Assembly (NCBI GenBank): GCA_017622495.1
Contig: JAGAQY010000006.1
Span: 424-64,423, forward strand
Source of the DNA: Bacteroidaceae bacterium
GTDB taxonomy: Bacteria > Bacteroidota > Bacteroidia > Bacteroidales > Bacteroidaceae
Direction of reading: 5' to 3'
DNA length: 64,000 bases
Position 1 is the first letter of the stretch. Each line of letters opens with the position of its first letter. Under the pieces are notes generated by a model. The model did no database searches. It had not been told where the DNA came from and saw nothing but the letters and a program-made list of their open reading frames with translations. The position numbers and the translations under genes are program-made. Below, one piece after another: positions 1-53,100 of this stretch.

Positions 1-29
1 ATTTATGAACTTTTGCCAATAGGGGACAC
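1..29. repeat. third copy of the repeat arm found at 51898-51926
   Basis: ATTTATGAACTTTTGCCAATAGGGGA matches ATTTATGAACTTTCGCCAATAGGAGA at 24 of the first 26 positions. The window begins exactly at this repeat. Confidence 0.7.
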
Positions 30-49590: not shown

Positions 49591-50378
49591 AGCGGTGTGT
49601 CGATCCATTTAATATTACCATGCACGGCTATCTCCTTGGGTAGTTGCATGTAGTCTCCAAACATCCTTGATAGATAGCTATGTGCACTCTTGGGAGCATA
49701 GAAGATGCTATCCTCGAAGGGTATCTCCACCAAGGGGAATATATCAGCTACACACCTCTCGGCCTTGTATATCATCCCGAAGGTATGATGATAGTTGCTT
49801 CCCTTATGGAATAGGGAAACATATCCTCTGAAAAGGGGGAATACGACACGCGTAAGGACTGCGTAGTTGAAGTTGTATAGCCAACGATGCTTGTACACCT
49901 TGTGGTGGCACAGGTTGACGTATAGTCTGTTGGCAATGCGATATAGCGCATACGGCGAGCGCTCCAGAGGGAATATGTCGATGAAGCATCCTTTGTGCTT
50001 CATCTCAAACGCAAAGCTCTCTTCGATGCATGAGTGCTTGTCGCGCACCTTGGCGTAGAGATGGGGATAGTCCTTATCGGTGCTTCTGTCTTGAAGCATG
50101 TACTGTTCGGGGAGTTCCTCGCGCAGTAGGGGCAACAGACGTAGATAGTCATCGCGCAGCATTTCGATGTCAAGGTCATCGTCCCAAGGAATGAATCCCC
50201 CATGGCGTACGGCCCCCAGCAGTGTGCCCGAGCTGAGCCAGTAGGGTATGTCGTGGGCACGGCAGATCTTATCCACCGCTTTCAGTATGTCGAGCATCCG
50301 TAGCTGCCCTCTACGCAGTAGCGAGCCGTCGGGACTGTATTTCTCGCGCAGTTCTTGCTGCACTTTTCGGTCTATCAT
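49587..50378 (-). CDS. licD: LicD-family phospho-substituent (phosphocholine-type) transferase
   Basis: LicD motif IPYWLSSGTLLGAVRHGGFIPWDDDLDIEM. ATG 50378 forms an ATGA overlap with the upstream stop. The track ORF extends to 50408. Confidence 0.8.
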   Translation of the reverse strand: MIDRKVQQELREKYSPDGSLLRRGQLRMLDILKAVDKICRAHDIPYWLSSGTLLGAVRHGGFIPWDDDLDIEMLRDDYLRLLPLLREELPEQYMLQDRSTDKDYPHLYAKVRDKHSCIEESFAFEMKHKGCFIDIFPLERSPYALYRIANRLYVNLCHHKVYKHRWLYNFNYAVLTRVVFPLFRGYVSLFHKGSNYHHTFGMIYKAERCVADIFPLVEIPFEDSIFYAPKSAHSYLSRMFGDYMQLPKEIAVHGNIKWIDTPL

Positions 50379-51340
50379 ATCCACCTCCTTTTCATCCTCT
50401 TCAGCCATTGCGTCATGGCTCTAATTCCTAAATATAGTCTGCTGAACATGGGATTGGCAAACCGCAGTGCAAAGCATTCCCACCATTGCCCCTTGTAGCC
50501 GTAATTGCGGATGTCCTCTATCACCTGCAGGTGTAGCTGAGTCTTTTCTCTGGTCTTGTGGTAATAATAGTGCCCTACAATCACGTGGTTCATCATCAGT
50601 ACATTGGCAATGCAGTAGGGCATGCACCTCTCGCGATAAGGCTCGGGAATCACACTTTTCTTGAAGTGATACGACCTGCCGAGATAGTCGAGCGTATAGT
50701 TGAACGTGTTCATGATACCCTCAGTGTTGTCGTTGTAGTGATATACCATTGTATGTGCTATGCGTATCTTCCTATCGCATGCAAAGGCCAGTCGGAGGTT
50801 CATGATGAAGTCCTCGCCCATTACAAAGTCGCGTGGGAGGTCGAATGTCTCTTCGTCGAACAACTCTCTTCTGAACAATTTGGCATAGGGCGATGAGGCT
50901 ATGCTATAGGCATATATCCGCTTGACGAGTTCCAACTTGTCCATCTCGCCATCGGCGTATTGCTTGGGATTACGGTCATAGTTCCCGATGATGATGTCAT
51001 ATTCCTCACCGGCCAAGGCATACAGGTCGTGTAGCGCTGTGGACGGCAGCGAGTCATCAGAGTCTACGAAGGTGATATATTCGCTTCCTGCCGATTCGCT
51101 TACGCCTAATGCTCGCGCCTTGTTGGCTCCGCCATTGGGGATATGGAATACACGCACGCGATGGTCATTTTCGGCGTATTCATCGCATATTTTCCCCGAA
51201 CTGTCGGGACTGCCATCATCGATGAGCAGCAGTTCGAAATCCTCGAATGTCTGTGCCAGAATACTGTCTACACAGCCATGCAAGAATCTCTCCGCCTTGT
51301 ATACGGGAACCACTACGGATATTTTCGGCGACTGCTTCAT
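50375..51340 (-). CDS. GT2-family glycosyltransferase
   Basis: ISVVVPVYKAERFLHGCV, LLIDDGSPDSS and VDSDD. Confidence 0.85.
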   Translation of the reverse strand: MKQSPKISVVVPVYKAERFLHGCVDSILAQTFEDFELLLIDDGSPDSSGKICDEYAENDHRVRVFHIPNGGANKARALGVSESAGSEYITFVDSDDSLPSTALHDLYALAGEEYDIIIGNYDRNPKQYADGEMDKLELVKRIYAYSIASSPYAKLFRRELFDEETFDLPRDFVMGEDFIMNLRLAFACDRKIRIAHTMVYHYNDNTEGIMNTFNYTLDYLGRSYHFKKSVIPEPYRERCMPYCIANVLMMNHVIVGHYYYHKTREKTQLHLQVIEDIRNYGYKGQWWECFALRFANPMFSRLYLGIRAMTQWLKRMKRRWI

Positions 51341-51463
51341 ACCTCTGTCTTCTATCTGTTGCCATGACTGTTCGTCTTGCGAAGATACAATATCCCCTCC
51401 AAGACTGCAAATTTTTCTTCGGAAAGTTTATACACGCTCTATGATTGCCATCAGTACCTGAGG

Positions 51464-51502
51464 ATCTCTATGGCGAAAGTTCATAAATCGGTTGGCAATG
51501 GC
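51464..51502. repeat. left arm of a roughly 40-bp imperfect inverted repeat
   Basis: ATCTCTATGGCGAAAGTTCATAAATCGGTTGGCAATGGC is the reverse complement of 51884-51924. There are 2 mismatches and 2 single-nt indels, and the 18-bp core is perfect. Confidence 0.85.
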
Positions 51503-51679
51503 TTGCTTTATATTGGCACAGCACAGCGAGGCAATGATAAGCTTCATGGACTGACCAAGTGCCTGGGCAGGTCTTAACCATCACCGAGCGAGAAGTCATC
51601 TTAAAGTGTTTTTTTATTGGAGGGAGCACAGATTCTTTTAACCCTCTGATTGTCTATACGGGACAAAGGGAAAAACTAC

Positions 51680-51761
51680 CGCCACCGCGGTGGCGTGATA
51701 GCGTCACCGCGGTGACAGAAAAGTGCCACCGCGGTGAAAACAAAACGCCACCGCGGTGGCG
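51680..51761. promoter_or_regulatory. array of four CACCGCGGTG palindromes phased at exactly 22 bp (candidate protein-binding array)
   Basis: CGCCACCGCGGTGGCG (51680-51695), GTCACCGCGGTGAC (51703-51716), CACCGCGGTG (51727-51736) and CGCCACCGCGGTGGCG (51746-51761). Dyad centres fall at 51687.5, 51709.5, 51731.5 and 51753.5. Confidence 0.6.
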
Positions 51762-51883
51762 GTGCAGTGAATGGCGGTTCGTCAGCAAACAGCGATGTGG
51801 AGAAACGAGCATAGAGGTGTATCTGTGGATAAAAAGGCGGCAAGAGTGAGGTTCCCGATACCTCGCTTATTTATGATGGCCTT

Positions 51884-51924
51884 GCCAATGCCAACCTATT
51901 TATGAACTTTCGCCAATAGGAGAT
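51884..51924. repeat. right arm of the inverted repeat
   Basis: GCCAATGCCAACCTATTTATGAACTTTCGCCAATAGGAGAT. A degenerate tandem half-copy (TATTTATGATGGCCTTGCCAAT) lies just inside it. Confidence 0.85.
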
Positions 51925-51966: not shown

Positions 51967-53100
51967 TTAATGCAGTGACTCCTGTAGGAATCGGAGGGCA
52001 TCTGTACGCCTTTCTTCAAGGATGCGGTATACCGGCTCGTAATCTATCGGGCAGAGTAGGGCCTTTTTATTTTGTTTGTAGTCTTCGTACGAGGTGACCA
52101 GCCGTCCCTCCAAGCCGAATACCTGCAACAGAGATTCAAAACGTGTCATTCCACGGCTTTTGTTGCCAATGACTACGAATGGTTTTCTATACAATATAGA
52201 GAATATACAAGCATGATAACTATCGGTAACCACGAACTCTGCATCACGGAATCCTTTCAACCATTGTTCAACAGGTGGCTGTATGCGCTCTTCCAATGTT
52301 GCTTTATGATCCTCGGTGCGCGAGTTCGTATGAAAAGGTTGTAATCCTTTCTCGCAGGCAATGTCATTGACCAATGCATCTTTTTCTTCACTCCTGTCGA
52401 GTACATAGCACATCATATTGCCTGGACTCGGCGGAGTATCTTCCCCAATCAGTCGAGTATAATCCTCTGCATTCAAGAGCAATGTAGGATCTATCATGCA
52501 CATGGCCTCTACGCCTAAGTACTTTTGACAAAGCCCGACACCAGACACCTCACGTACACTTATGGCATCGAACATACGAGCCATAGCAGCGACATTTGCC
52601 GTCTCTGCTTTATTGTATTCCCATTCGTCAGTGCCGAATGATGCCGCATATGCAAGGCGCTTGACATTCCAGCCTTCTGTAAATTTCAAGAAGGAGTTTT
52701 CGACCCCAGGAAATGGTCTGGCATAACGTGCACGCCATATCTGATCGCTTCCGACAACGAATGCGTCAAAATCCTGTACGCCAATCTCTGTCATGTTGCG
52801 TACCATCTTCCTGCTGATGTGCCGGCTGACGAACCTATTGGTGTGCATCGTACGTGCAGCCCATAGCTTCCTATAATAGGTGGGCGAATAGATGATGGCG
52901 TTCTTCCCCATCAAGCATCTTTTTATGGTACCTTTGACAAACATCTCTATCCGCCGCTTCAGCGAATATTCAAATTGCTTGTCCTCATCGATGACATATA
53001 CCTCATGCCCCATATCGTGCAATGTGTGCAGCAAGGCATACGACTGCAATATGCCACCATAGTTGGTTCCTAACGGAAGCGATAAGATGCCTATTCTCAT
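51967..53100 (-). CDS. polysaccharide pyruvyl transferase family protein
   Basis: The start MRIGILSLPLGTNYGGILQSYAL is typical of the family. VVTDSYHACIF motif present. Confidence 0.8.
   Translation of the reverse strand: MRIGILSLPLGTNYGGILQSYALLHTLHDMGHEVYVIDEDKQFEYSLKRRIEMFVKGTIKRCLMGKNAIIYSPTYYRKLWAARTMHTNRFVSRHISRKMVRNMTEIGVQDFDAFVVGSDQIWRARYARPFPGVENSFLKFTEGWNVKRLAYAASFGTDEWEYNKAETANVAAMARMFDAISVREVSGVGLCQKYLGVEAMCMIDPTLLLNAEDYTRLIGEDTPPSPGNMMCYVLDRSEEKDALVNDIACEKGLQPFHTNSRTEDHKATLEERIQPPVEQWLKGFRDAEFVVTDSYHACIFSILYRKPFVVIGNKSRGMTRFESLLQVFGLEGRLVTSYEDYKQNKKALLCPIDYEPVYRILEERRTDALRFLQESLH

What the first reader, a model, noticed from the sequence alone, without database searches (positions are those of the whole stretch)
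51680..51761. Four CACCGCGGTG palindromes phased at exactly 22 bp inside the IR-flanked segment
The four dyads are:
- CGCCACCGCGGTGGCG, 51680-51695.
- GTCACCGCGGTGAC, 51703-51716.
- CACCGCGGTG, 51727-51736.
- CGCCACCGCGGTGGCG, 51746-51761.

Their centres are spaced 22, 22 and 22 bp apart. That is about two helical turns, so all four dyads face the same side of the helix.

This looks like a cooperative binding array for a dimeric DNA-binding protein rather than a terminator. The stems have no loop and no T-tract. The GC-rich dyads stand out in an otherwise AT-rich intergenic region. They also create the spurious track ORF 51559..51849.

I do not recognise this operator. Each dyad contains CCGCGG, so it could alternatively be a methylation or restriction-related target cluster.
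Basis: seen in the sequence. Interest (0 to 1): 0.65.

Follow-up and report, generated by a model that had tools for sequence, protein, structure and literature searches.

The report
Orphan HU-HIG operator-type palindrome array
The four evenly spaced palindromes are a stray copy of a site array that normally sits just behind the promoter of a Bacteroidota DNA-binding protein gene (HU-HIG with a winged helix); here a small repeat element carries it between two parts of a surface-sugar gene cluster, where it most likely still docks that protein.

Summary
CACCGCGGTG occurs four times at exactly 22-bp steps, against 0.04 copies expected per window.

It is not a local invention. The 32-nt inverted repeats around it belong to a dispersed, MITE-like family in ruminant-gut Bacteroidaceae. 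Only about one element in ten carries the array.

The array is an independent module with these properties:
- Low-GC metagenome arrays keep exactly 22 bp in 139 of 150 intervals.
- Most arrays have four copies.
- Every homologue examined of one ~207-aa HU-HIG protein with a DeoR-like winged helix has such an array. That covers 7 protein clusters plus 5 loci found through the array.
- In 10 of 11 of these arrays, dyad 1 starts exactly 24 nt after a Bacteroidetes -7 box, and the array ends 46-108 nt before the ATG.
- The core changes with the protein clade, from CACCGCGGTG to CTCCGCGGAG and CTCCGCGAAG, and is often asymmetric.

The window copy keeps four perfect cores and about 40 nt of the native upstream arm. 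It has lost the -7 box and has no HU-HIG gene beside it. A roughly 90%-identical HU-HIG locus is present in the same metagenomes at matching depth.

Best reading (0.5): a helically phased docking array for that dimeric protein. RNA contigs show no strong termination. Binding is untested.

The parts
51680..51695 (.). Dyad 1, CGCCACCGCGGTGGCG (core 51683-51692)
51703..51716 (.). Dyad 2, GTCACCGCGGTGAC (core 51705-51714)
51727..51736 (.). Dyad 3, core CACCGCGGTG only
51746..51761 (.). Dyad 4, CGCCACCGCGGTGGCG (core 51749-51758)
51641..51681 (+). Upstream arm homologous to the promoter-proximal region of HU-HIG genes. It holds the CAAAGGGAAAAA box (51664-51675) and a decayed -7 box, TGTCTATA, at 51651-51658, exactly 24 nt before dyad 1.
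   Evidence: nhmmer with a profile of five HU-HIG loci hits here with E=0.013, adjacent to the array. The register was compared with the 24-nt rule.
51471..51502 (+). Left arm of the 32-nt inverted repeat of the dispersed IR (MITE-like) family. The imperfect extension starts at about 51464.
   Evidence: The word depth of this arm is about 1400 against about 38 for the genome. The family is seen in at least 10 Bacteroidaceae MAGs.
51884..51915 (-). Right arm of the inverted repeat (extension to about 51924)
51737..51745 (-). T-run TTTTGTTTT directly after dyad 4 on the minus strand (terminator-like)
51671..51675 (-). T-run after dyad 1 on the minus strand. It also follows the nested long hairpin predicted for the whole array.
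51380..51411 (-). Putative separate promoter of the downstream GT2-LicD-GT2-GT2-FucT genes: -33 TTTG (51411-51408), a 20-nt spacer, then -7 TATCTTCG (51387-51380). It lies outside the IR element.
   Evidence: Sequence. It matches the Bacteroides TTTG/TAnnTTTG consensus (established knowledge) with one mismatch. This is an inference, consistent with RNA depth downstream being at least as high as upstream.
51967..53100 (-). Upstream gene, polysaccharide pyruvyl transferase
50375..51340 (-). Downstream gene, family-2 glycosyltransferase

Best explanation
The four dyads are an orphan copy of a conserved cis-element of Bacteroidota.

**Native context (shown).** A four-unit array with a 22-bp period and a core of C[A/T][C/T]CGCGG[A/T]G begins exactly 24 nt after the -7 promoter box. 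That places it at roughly +19 to +95, counting from an inferred transcription start that was not mapped. It ends 46-108 nt before the start codon of a ~207-aa HU-HIG protein. That protein has an HU-type dimerisation and DNA-binding fold followed by a C-terminal DeoR-like winged helix.

**Mechanism (inferred).** Dimers of this protein dock on the palindromes. The two-turn spacing puts them on one face of the helix, so they bind cooperatively and form a promoter-proximal nucleoprotein block that autoregulates the gene.

**In the window (shown).** A copy of the array with about 40 nt of its native upstream arm lies inside a dispersed, MITE-like element bounded by inverted repeats. The element lies between the pyruvyl-transferase gene and the GT2 gene of a glycan locus. 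Its native sense direction is antisense to those genes. Its -7 box is destroyed, but all four cores are intact.

**Local effect (inferred).** It most likely still binds the HU-HIG/wHTH protein, whose gene is present in the same metagenomes at the same depth. It would then act as an extra docking or titration site and a mild barrier or insulator between two transcription units. It is not a promoter or a strong terminator.
For: - **Regularity:** chance is excluded. In low-GC arrays 139 of 150 intervals are exactly 22 bp, and 32 of 48 arrays have 4 copies.
- **Forward link:** 7 of about 48 low-GC array loci have an HU-HIG gene beside the array. No HU-HIG gene was found in the other roughly 150 loci or in the window.
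- **Reverse test, unbiased for arrays:** homologues at 54-76% identity were fetched by protein (P0015, P0042, P0048, P0060, P0088, P0093, P0079). All carry a four-dyad 22-bp array upstream.
- **Fixed geometry:** the -7 box TAnnTTTG ends 24 nt before dyad 1 in 10 of 11 loci.
- **Core tracks protein clade:** CACCGCGGTG occurs at 66% identity or more to the query. CTCCGCGGAG, CATCGCGGAG and CTCCGCGAAG occur at 54-60%. In the second clade 15 of 20 dyads are asymmetric. That fits half-site recognition and not an obligatory hairpin.
- **Protein type:** PF18291 plus a C-terminal HTH_DeoR above the gathering score in P0040.
- **The array goes with HU-HIG, not with the neighbouring VapE-like gene:** L204, L211 and L212 lack that gene but keep the array.
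- **The window copy is homologous beyond the dyads:** the upstream-arm profile hits 51641-51681 with E=0.013. L042, another IR element, carries a near-identical copy of the array region of the HU-HIG locus L082 from the same MAG; the two arrays differ at one base.
- **Cognate gene co-occurs:** a 3019-bp contig about 90% identical to the L082 HU-HIG locus has depths 36.5/33/16.3/35.2 in X1-X4. The window contig has 38.3/34.7/22.6/37.2.
- **No strong termination:** in four metatranscriptomes, RNA contig depth downstream of the element is at least as high as upstream.
Against: - No binding, footprint or expression test exists. The link to the protein rests on adjacency and co-variation only.
- The published analysis of HU-HIG proteins argued that they are unlikely to be sequence-specific factors (PMC5499826).
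- Flanking positions of the dyads, and the arms outside the whole array, are complementary more often than shuffles allow (0 of 500). Several pair types are involved. That is what selection for a hairpin or cruciform would give. Template-switch correction of quasi-palindromes could mimic it.
- An RNA contig runs contiguously from upstream of the array, through it, into the HU-HIG ORF, so an RNA-level role of the array is possible. The contig starts well upstream of the predicted -7 box. The transcription start assumed in the 24-nt geometry is therefore not confirmed; DNA carry-over or the divergent transcript could also explain the contig.
- A 10-bp palindrome is short for two winged helices on one face.
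- Many arrays (after gyrB, between convergent genes, in high-GC soil contigs) have no HU-HIG gene within the few kb held.
- The window copy may simply be inert.
Confidence: 0.5

Rival explanations
1. RNA-level (or single-strand or cruciform) structure element. The array is transcribed and folds into a very stable nested hairpin or four small hairpins. These would act as a leader structure, a processing or stability site, or a partial intrinsic terminator or insulator between the two glycan transcription units.
For: - Either strand folds at about -75 kcal/mol, with z = -10.8 and -7.1.
- On the operon sense strand, T-runs follow two of the four dyads (4 and 1), and the pattern scan scores both as terminator-like.
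- Dyad extensions and the outer arms co-vary above shuffled and slid controls.
- RNA contig depth is lowest over the array in all four metatranscriptomes: 3.8/27/0/29, against 15.6/58/17.5/65 upstream.
- An RNA contig runs from the upstream arm through the array into the HU-HIG ORF.
- G-U-compatible mismatches lean weakly to one strand (p about 0.013).
Against: - The strict 22-nt register is kept whatever the stem length. The 10-nt core, including its would-be loop, is about 97% invariant, and the inner stem never co-varies.
- In the CTCCGCGGAG clade 15 of 20 cores are asymmetric, so the small hairpins are broken.
- High-GC arrays share the core and period without any dyad extension.
- T-runs are not conserved among arrays.
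- The window copy is inverted relative to its native sense direction.
- RNA depth recovers just downstream of the array and is higher still in the GT2 gene. The dip may be a sequencing bias against a strong hairpin.
- There is no Rfam match.
Confidence: 0.17
2. Inert passenger. The array was captured by the IR element from an HU-HIG locus and does nothing at this site. The perfect cores reflect a recent copy or gene conversion with the master array.
For: - The -7 box is decayed (TGTCTATA), and the downstream arm is not detectably homologous.
- Only about 1 in 10 IR elements carries an array.
- Some IR-borne arrays have decaying cores (L005, L088).
- All 12+ assemblies of the locus are identical, so they give no sign of selection either way.
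Against: - The cores are 40 of 40 intact, while the adjoining arm has diverged enough to be found only at E=0.013.
- Independent IR-borne copies also keep 4-5 perfect cores and the exact register (L042, L054, L096, L127, L153, L180).
- If the protein binds such sites at all, it will bind here.
Confidence: 0.2
3. Iteron-type replication origin (or transfer origin) for the VapE-like or DUF3987 primase-helicase-type gene that lies divergently next to most HU-HIG loci. The window copy would be a stray origin fragment.
For: - Four repeats at 22 bp is the classic iteron geometry (established knowledge of plasmids such as pPS10 and R6K).
- VapE-like or DUF3987 genes flank the array in L082, L120, L122, L149, L174, L205-L210, L214 and L215.
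Against: - The array persists with HU-HIG where no such gene is adjacent (L204, L211, L212).
- Its distance is fixed relative to the HU-HIG promoter, not to the other gene.
- The units are dyads with variable spacers, not direct repeats.
- There are no hits in 2.9 million viral contigs.
- Arrays also occur after housekeeping genes.
Confidence: 0.05
4. Part of an invertible switch. The IR-bounded segment flips, and the array is a cis-acting site for the inversion, or a terminator that works in only one orientation (as in the cwpV switch of Clostridioides difficile).
For: - The segment has 32-nt IRs inside a surface-glycan locus.
- Short 128-bp family members contain a -7 box, TAAATTTG.
- The T-runs are strand-asymmetric.
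Against: - Every assembly and contig that spans the junctions has the same orientation. That includes 12+ metagenome assemblies of this strain and relatives in X6-X8.
- Orthologous methyltransferase-upstream sites in six species keep one orientation.
- Flanking genes of family members are mostly housekeeping genes.
- Most arrays lie outside IR elements.
- Only contigs, not raw reads, could be examined.
Confidence: 0.05
5. Cluster of restriction or methylation targets (CCGCGG).
For: Each dyad in the window contains CCGCGG.
Against: - CCGCGG elsewhere in the window is at the expected frequency (10 seen, 13.6 expected).
- Homologous arrays use cores without CCGCGG, such as CTCCGCGAAG and CACCGCAGAG.
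- A target cluster would not explain the 22-bp register or the fixed promoter distance.
Confidence: 0.02

Closest known systems
77-bp inverted-repeat element of the Porphyromonas gingivalis K-antigen capsule locus, with HU PG0121 and the antisense RNA asSuGR (PMC3969353, PMC8757827)
   Same: It is a non-coding, inverted-repeat-bounded element in Bacteroidota, placed inside a surface-glycan gene cluster and co-transcribed with it. It is linked to an HU-family protein that prefers this DNA over a control 77-mer. It can form a large stem-loop or cruciform and influences glycan expression.
   Different: - Its arms are 77 bp around a loop of more than 1 kb, against 32-40 bp around 381 bp here.
- Its protein is a classical ~10-kDa HU, not an HU-HIG/wHTH.
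- No phased 22-bp dyad array is described for it.
- Its sequence could not be fetched for comparison.
- The resemblance is functional and architectural. Homology is not shown.
Promoter-proximal operator arrays of autoregulated dimeric repressors and nucleoid proteins. Examples are the E. coli hupA promoter overlapping a cruciform-prone inverted repeat (cited in PMC3969353), and NrdR-box or ARG-box tandem palindromes.
   Same: Palindromic sites are set at whole helical turns next to the regulator's own promoter. Cooperative, same-face binding is expected.
   Different: The array has four sites with a 22-bp period placed downstream of the -7 box. The protein class (HU-HIG fused to a winged helix) has no described operator. 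Orphan copies are spread by a repeat element.
HU-HIG clade of the HU/IHF superfamily (Burroughs et al. 2017, PMC5499826; Pfam PF18291)
   Same: The genes next to the native arrays are members of the wHTH-fused subclade.
   Different: That study found no conserved gene linkages and judged sequence-specific regulation unlikely. Here a conserved non-coding array at a fixed distance from the promoter accompanies every member of one subfamily that was examined.
MITEs and mosaic intergenic repeats (Correia elements of Neisseria, ERIC, pneumococcal BOX elements)
   Same: The IR family is short, non-coding, intergenic and multi-copy. It has terminal inverted repeats, size classes (128 bp and 260-1080 bp) and mosaic interiors, and some copies carry promoters.
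   Different: No target-site duplication, empty site or transposase was identified. Orthologous sites are occupied in six species with different interiors.
REP/BIME elements with RAYT transposases
   Same: Both are extragenic palindromes in tandem, often at 3' ends of genes, with an HU connection in E. coli.
   Different: These arrays are low-copy, with about three per genome in the window's metagenomes. The register is strict, the core is shared across genera, and no RAYT gene was seen.

Membership tests
   nhmmer E=0.013 at 51641-51681. CAAAGGGAAAAA lies at 51664-51675.
   The window has TGTCTATA at 51651-51658. The box is present in 10 of 11 native loci.
   There is no HU-HIG hit in the window, so this is an orphan copy. 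A candidate cognate gene lies on another contig of the same metagenomes.
MITE | Terminal inverted repeats, small size, no coding capacity | tested here: met
MITE | Many dispersed copies in one genome | tested here: met
   The IR word depth is about 35 times the genome depth. At least 18 loci were found in one MAG. The window itself starts inside another copy.
MITE | Target-site duplication and empty sites in relatives | tested here: inconclusive
   The flanks continue the inverted repeat (CCCTA(TA)), so no direct repeat can be read. No empty site was found in the relatives seen.
MITE | Cognate transposase in the genome | not testable with these tools
Inverton (invertible promoter or terminator) | Both orientations present in a population | tested here: not met
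   All assemblies and contigs show one orientation. Raw reads were not available.
Inverton (invertible promoter or terminator) | Functional promoter inside the segment | tested here: not met
   There is no TAnnTTTG on either strand of the window element.
Intrinsic terminator | GC-rich hairpin followed by a T-run on the transcribed strand | tested here: met
   Minus-strand hits at 51761-51746 and 51695-51680.
Intrinsic terminator | Loss of transcript downstream | tested here: inconclusive
   RNA contig depth dips over the array but recovers, and it is higher downstream. Contig depth is a poor measure and carries no strand information.
REP/BIME | Tens to hundreds of copies per genome | tested here: not met
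   About three arrays occur at genome-level depth in X1-X4, and a few per metagenome in X5-X8.
Iteron origin | Linked initiator gene whose presence tracks the repeats | tested here: not met
   The arrays persist without VapE-like or DUF3987 genes. None lies near the window copy.
Restriction/methylation target cluster | The enzyme's target word is the conserved feature | tested here: not met
   Homologous arrays lack CCGCGG in many units.
P. gingivalis 77bpIR-type element | Sequence homology, or binding by an HU-family protein | not testable with these tools
   The sequence is not held. Only the architecture can be compared.

The most novel reading that the evidence does not exclude
HU-HIG proteins with a winged helix would be sequence-specific regulators. 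Their four-site, two-turn operator arrays are copied out of their own promoters by a MITE-like element and seeded into other loci, including surface-glycan clusters. That would create a trans-acting network that ties glycan expression, and possibly the neighbouring VapE-type mobile module, to the level of one nucleoid-type protein. It would be a mechanistic counterpart of the HU/77-bp-IR control of the P. gingivalis capsule, and it would give a first function to the large, enigmatic HU-HIG expansion of Bacteroidota.
Probability: 0.15. Interest if true: 0.8.

Novelty: new variant of a known kind. Interest (0 to 1): 0.58.

Why it matters
HU-HIG proteins form a large, fast-evolving, Bacteroidota-specific expansion of the HU family with no known function or DNA target. 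The only survey of them (PMC5499826) saw no conserved linkage.

A conserved site array at a fixed distance from the promoter of every examined member of one subfamily gives a concrete, cheaply testable target. A single EMSA or DAP-seq with an 82-bp probe would test it.

If the protein binds, three things follow:
- Orphan arrays such as this one mark extra regulatory targets.
- A repeat element would be shown to rewire regulation by moving operator arrays.
- Surface-glycan loci of gut and rumen Bacteroidaceae would gain a new control layer.

If it does not bind, the array remains a widespread conserved non-coding element that needs another explanation.

Tried and rejected
- **Whole-genome tools:** Copy number in the window's own genome, the transposase and the HU-HIG gene could only be approached through metagenome contigs.
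- **Rfam:** only chance matches to microRNA hairpins.
- **Viral contigs:** no array in IMG/VR.
- **Literature:** searches for the motif found only cloning sites. MITE and DUF4248 searches gave nothing relevant. The two key P. gingivalis papers with the 77-bp IR sequence are not held.
- **Earlier scan notes:** only phased palindromes of unrelated sequence in other phyla.
- **Invertible switch:** rejected for lack of any flipped junction.
- **REP/RAYT idea:** dropped because of low copy number.
- **Downstream arm:** the profile of the leader plus the start of the HU-HIG ORF gave no hit in the window. My by-eye impression of a remnant HU-HIG start codon region is therefore not supported and is not claimed.
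- **Wobble-strand test:** weak and confounded by strand composition.
- **Neighbour clustering:** no other gene was shared across array loci.
- **P0015-type HU-HIG allele:** the allele represented by L122 is absent from the window's metagenomes. The L082-type allele is present.
Full report
**1. Observation**

The sequence shows CACCGCGGTG at 51683, 51705, 51727 and 51749, which gives steps of exactly 22 bp. The longer palindromes lie at 51680-51695, 51703-51716 and 51746-51761. Dinucleotide-preserving shuffles give 0.04 copies of the 10-mer per window. The only other copy (19568) is in coding sequence.

A 32-nt inverted repeat (51471-51502 / 51884-51915, 94% complementary) bounds the segment.

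On the minus strand TTTTGTTTT follows dyad 4 directly, and TTTTT lies 4 nt after dyad 1.

**2. Setting**

The segment lies in a 626-bp gap inside a minus-strand glycan locus. Transcribed in order, the locus reads:
- metG
- a nucleotidyltransferase/aminotransferase fusion
- an octopine-dehydrogenase-like gene
- a 510-aa protein without a Pfam match
- an FrhB-like gene
- the pyruvyl transferase (51967-53100)
- the gap
- GT2 (50375-51340), LicD, GT2, GT2 and a fucosyltransferase

Just outside the element, on the minus strand, there is a good Bacteroides-type promoter. It has TTTG at 51411-51408, a 20-nt spacer, and TATCTTCG at 51387-51380 (consensus from established knowledge). The gap therefore probably separates two transcription units. 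This is an inference.

**3. The inverted repeat is a dispersed family**

- In the metagenomes that hold this strain, the IR arms have a word depth of about 1400 against about 38 for the genome. Contigs break there.
- An exact 17-mer of the arm finds more than 100 places. Most are in ruminant-gut Bacteroidaceae MAGs, with at least 18 in one MAG.
- Fifty complete elements of 127-1080 bp were delimited.
- The short 128-bp form carries a -7 box, TAAATTTG.
- Interiors are mosaics of shared modules.
- The repeat continues outward (CCCTA(TA)). In many copies it reaches a shared CGATGAAATCGGCGATTTTT motif.
- Neighbouring genes are diverse and mostly housekeeping genes.
- The window itself begins inside another copy.

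I found no flipped copy. Twelve or more assemblies of this locus are identical in orientation. Relatives in other samples keep it. Orthologous sites upstream of a methyltransferase gene keep one orientation in six species.

I therefore call the family MITE-like.

Only about 5 of the 50 complete elements carry the dyad array. With partial or diverged elements there are about ten independent cases.

**4. The array is an independent, widespread module**

A metagenome scan for two cores 12 nt apart returned 91 loci with GC from 38% to 78%. None was found in 2.9 million viral contigs.

In low-GC (Bacteroidota-like) contigs:
- 139 of 150 intervals are exactly 22 bp.
- 32 of 48 arrays have four units.
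- The core is about 97% invariant, while the spacers are unrelated between loci.
- Most of these arrays lie outside IR elements.
- They are intergenic, for example after gyrB or between convergent genes.

High-GC arrays are plain 22-bp direct repeats with the same core. They may be a separate phenomenon.

**5. Native context**

Five array loci showed the same arrangement. On one side lies a divergent VapE-like/DUF3874 gene. On the other side the array is followed by a ~207-aa HU-HIG protein (PF18291). Two further array loci have other HU-HIG genes nearby.

I then reversed the test. I searched for homologues of the protein and fetched contigs for seven clusters at 54-76% identity, without reference to the array. 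All of them have four dyads at 22 bp upstream of the gene.

The geometry is fixed:
- In 10 of 11 loci a TAnnTTTG -7 box ends exactly 24 nt before dyad 1.
- The last dyad ends 46-108 nt before the ATG, or further where a repeat has been inserted.

The array stays with HU-HIG when the VapE-like or DUF3987 neighbour is absent (L204, L211, L212).

The C-terminus of the protein is a DeoR-like winged helix. P0040 scores 27.1 bits against a cut-off of 21.

The core follows the protein clade:
- Proteins at 66% identity or more to the query (L149:3360-3983) have CACCGCGGTG.
- Proteins at 54-60% identity have CTCCGCGGAG, CATCGCGGAG or CTCCGCGAAG.
- In the second clade 15 of 20 cores are not self-complementary.

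**6. The window copy**

- A profile of the native upstream arm hits the window at 51641-51681 (+), abutting dyad 1, with E=0.013 for the whole window.
- In the native register, the -7 box position (51651-51658) reads TGTCTATA, which is a destroyed box. The CAAAGRGAAAA box is kept at 51664-51675.
- The downstream arm is not detectably homologous.
- No HU-HIG gene lies in the window.
- The native sense direction is the plus strand, which is antisense to the glycan genes.
- Another IR element (L042) carries an array that differs at one base from the array of the HU-HIG locus L082 in the same MAG, and it keeps an intact -7 box. Capture of this module by IR elements is therefore recurrent.

In the window's own metagenomes, a 3019-bp contig about 90% identical to the L082 HU-HIG locus has depths of 36.5/33/16.3/35.2. 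The window contig has 38.3/34.7/22.6/37.2. The cognate gene is therefore probably in the same genome. A third array contig is also present.

**7. DNA site or folded strand?**

For a folded strand:
- Dyad flanks pair more often than their base composition predicts (118 against 63, 90 against 55 and 113 against 59).
- On an alignment of 25 arrays, dyad extensions pair in 59.6% of cells against 46.5% in shuffles (0 of 500 shuffles reach it).
- The arms outside dyads 1 and 4 pair in 62% against 45% (0 of 500). Slid controls are lower in both cases.
- Spacer-centred and global pairings are weaker.
- Either strand folds at about -75 kcal/mol.

For a double-stranded protein site:
- The register is strict whatever the stem length.
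- The core is invariant, including its would-be loop.
- The distance to the promoter is fixed.
- The cores of the second clade are asymmetric.
- The adjacent gene encodes a dimeric DNA-binding protein.

Template-switch correction of quasi-palindromes, a known mutational bias, could create the extra symmetry without selection. A cruciform recognised by an HU-type fold would reconcile both sets of facts. I weight the protein-docking reading at 0.5 and a purely RNA or structural reading at 0.17.

**8. Transcription**

In four metatranscriptomes, contigs cover the whole region.

| Region | Contig depth in the four runs |
|---|---|
| Upstream gene | 15.6 / 58 / 17.5 / 65 |
| Over the array | 3.8 / 27 / 0 / 29 |
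| 51473-51673 | recovers |
| Downstream GT2 gene | 16-33 / 93 / 18.5 / 113-156 |

This argues against efficient polar termination and fits a separate downstream promoter. Contig depth is a weak measure and carries no strand information.

For the L082-like HU-HIG locus, one RNA contig runs from the upstream arm through the array into the ORF. This is consistent with the array lying in the transcribed leader. The contig starts well upstream of the predicted -7 box. The transcription start is therefore unconfirmed. DNA carry-over or the divergent transcript could also explain it.

**9. Alternatives rejected**

- **Restriction or methylation target:** CCGCGG is at the expected frequency elsewhere. 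It is dispensable in homologous arrays.
- **Iteron origin:** the array tracks HU-HIG, not the helicase-type gene.
- **REP/BIME:** there are only about three arrays per genome.
- **Known RNA family:** none.

**10. Comparison with what is known**

I found no description of this array.

The HU-HIG clade was defined in 2017. That study reported no conserved linkages and judged sequence-specific regulation unlikely (PMC5499826).

The closest biological parallel is the 77-bp inverted-repeat element inside the P. gingivalis K-antigen locus. [quoted passage not shown] That parallel is architectural only. The sequence could not be compared.

**11. Verdict**

The array is an orphan copy of a conserved promoter-proximal site array of HU-HIG/wHTH genes, carried by a MITE-like element into a glycan locus. 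The identity claim is strong, at about 0.85. The mechanism is inferred at 0.5: docking of that protein, with at most a mild local barrier or titration effect.

This is a new variant of a known kind of system, an autoregulatory operator array. It offers a cheap decisive experiment and would give a first handle on a large protein family of unknown function.

Noticed in passing
window 1-22: The window begins inside the right arm of another copy of the IR family (ATTTATGAACTTTTGCCAATAGGGG). The homologous loci L048 and L003 have a full element there. The contig was probably broken at this repeat.
   Followed up: partly
window 51380-51411 (minus strand): A likely separate promoter for the GT2-to-FucT genes: TTTG, 20 nt, then TATCTTCG. 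Its -7 region, TATCTTCGcaagaCGAAC, resembles the HU-HIG promoter TATCTTTGcaagaCAAAGAG.
   Followed up: partly
L010, L021, L029, L036, L041, L058, L062, L074, L093: These 128-bp members of the IR family are near-identical across MAGs and hold a Bacteroidetes -7 box (TAAATTTG). Several lie 300-900 bp upstream of surface-protein genes (BspA-type LRR, TonB-dependent receptor, DUF5686). They could be mobile or switchable promoters.
   Followed up: partly
Flanks of many IR elements (e.g. L069 4230-4300, L089, L032): A conserved motif, CGATGAAAT(C/G)GGCGATTTTT, lies 15-45 nt outside the 32-nt IR at both ends, facing inward. It is hairpin-plus-T-run-like and its role is unknown.
   Followed up: no
L117, L124, L136, L139, L141, L145, L164, L171, L184, L192, L202 (72-78% GC metagenome contigs): Perfect 22-bp direct repeats (GACTCACCGCGGTGRAACGTAC), up to 11 copies, share the CACCGCGGTG core and the period. 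They lack dyad extension, and no Pfam family was found on the two neighbouring ORFs tested.
   Followed up: partly
L128 4866-4941, L130, L113, L116, L126, L150, L200: A variant array alternates GCACCGCGGTGC and AGACCGCGGTCT or GACCACGGTC dyads at 22 bp. In L128 and L130 it lies 138 nt after gyrB and before an 1144-aa protein without a Pfam match.
   Followed up: partly
L204 2140-2490, L206, L122 1430-1700: A repetitive insert (GATAAAGGGAGATAAAGGAAG units) separates the array from the HU-HIG start codon in some loci. Pieces of it are multi-copy in the window's metagenomes, at depth 90-146 against about 38.
   Followed up: no
L207 / L208 3420-5636: Here the HU-HIG gene with its array heads a glycan locus (Stealth_CR2, GT1, LicD) on the same strand. 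This suggests a recurrent association of this module with polysaccharide clusters.
   Followed up: no
L096 4170-4330: A five-dyad array is enclosed by a perfect 25-nt outer inverted repeat (GGACGGATTGTGATTTGCGCCACTC). It is the clearest case of the whole array being one large palindrome.
   Followed up: partly
L082 4275-5078 (minus strand): By eye this ORF looks like a KilA-N-type DNA-binding protein; Pfam was not run on it. It lies about 280 bp beyond the end of the HU-HIG gene, which hints that the HU-HIG/VapE module sits in a mobile-element context.
   Followed up: no
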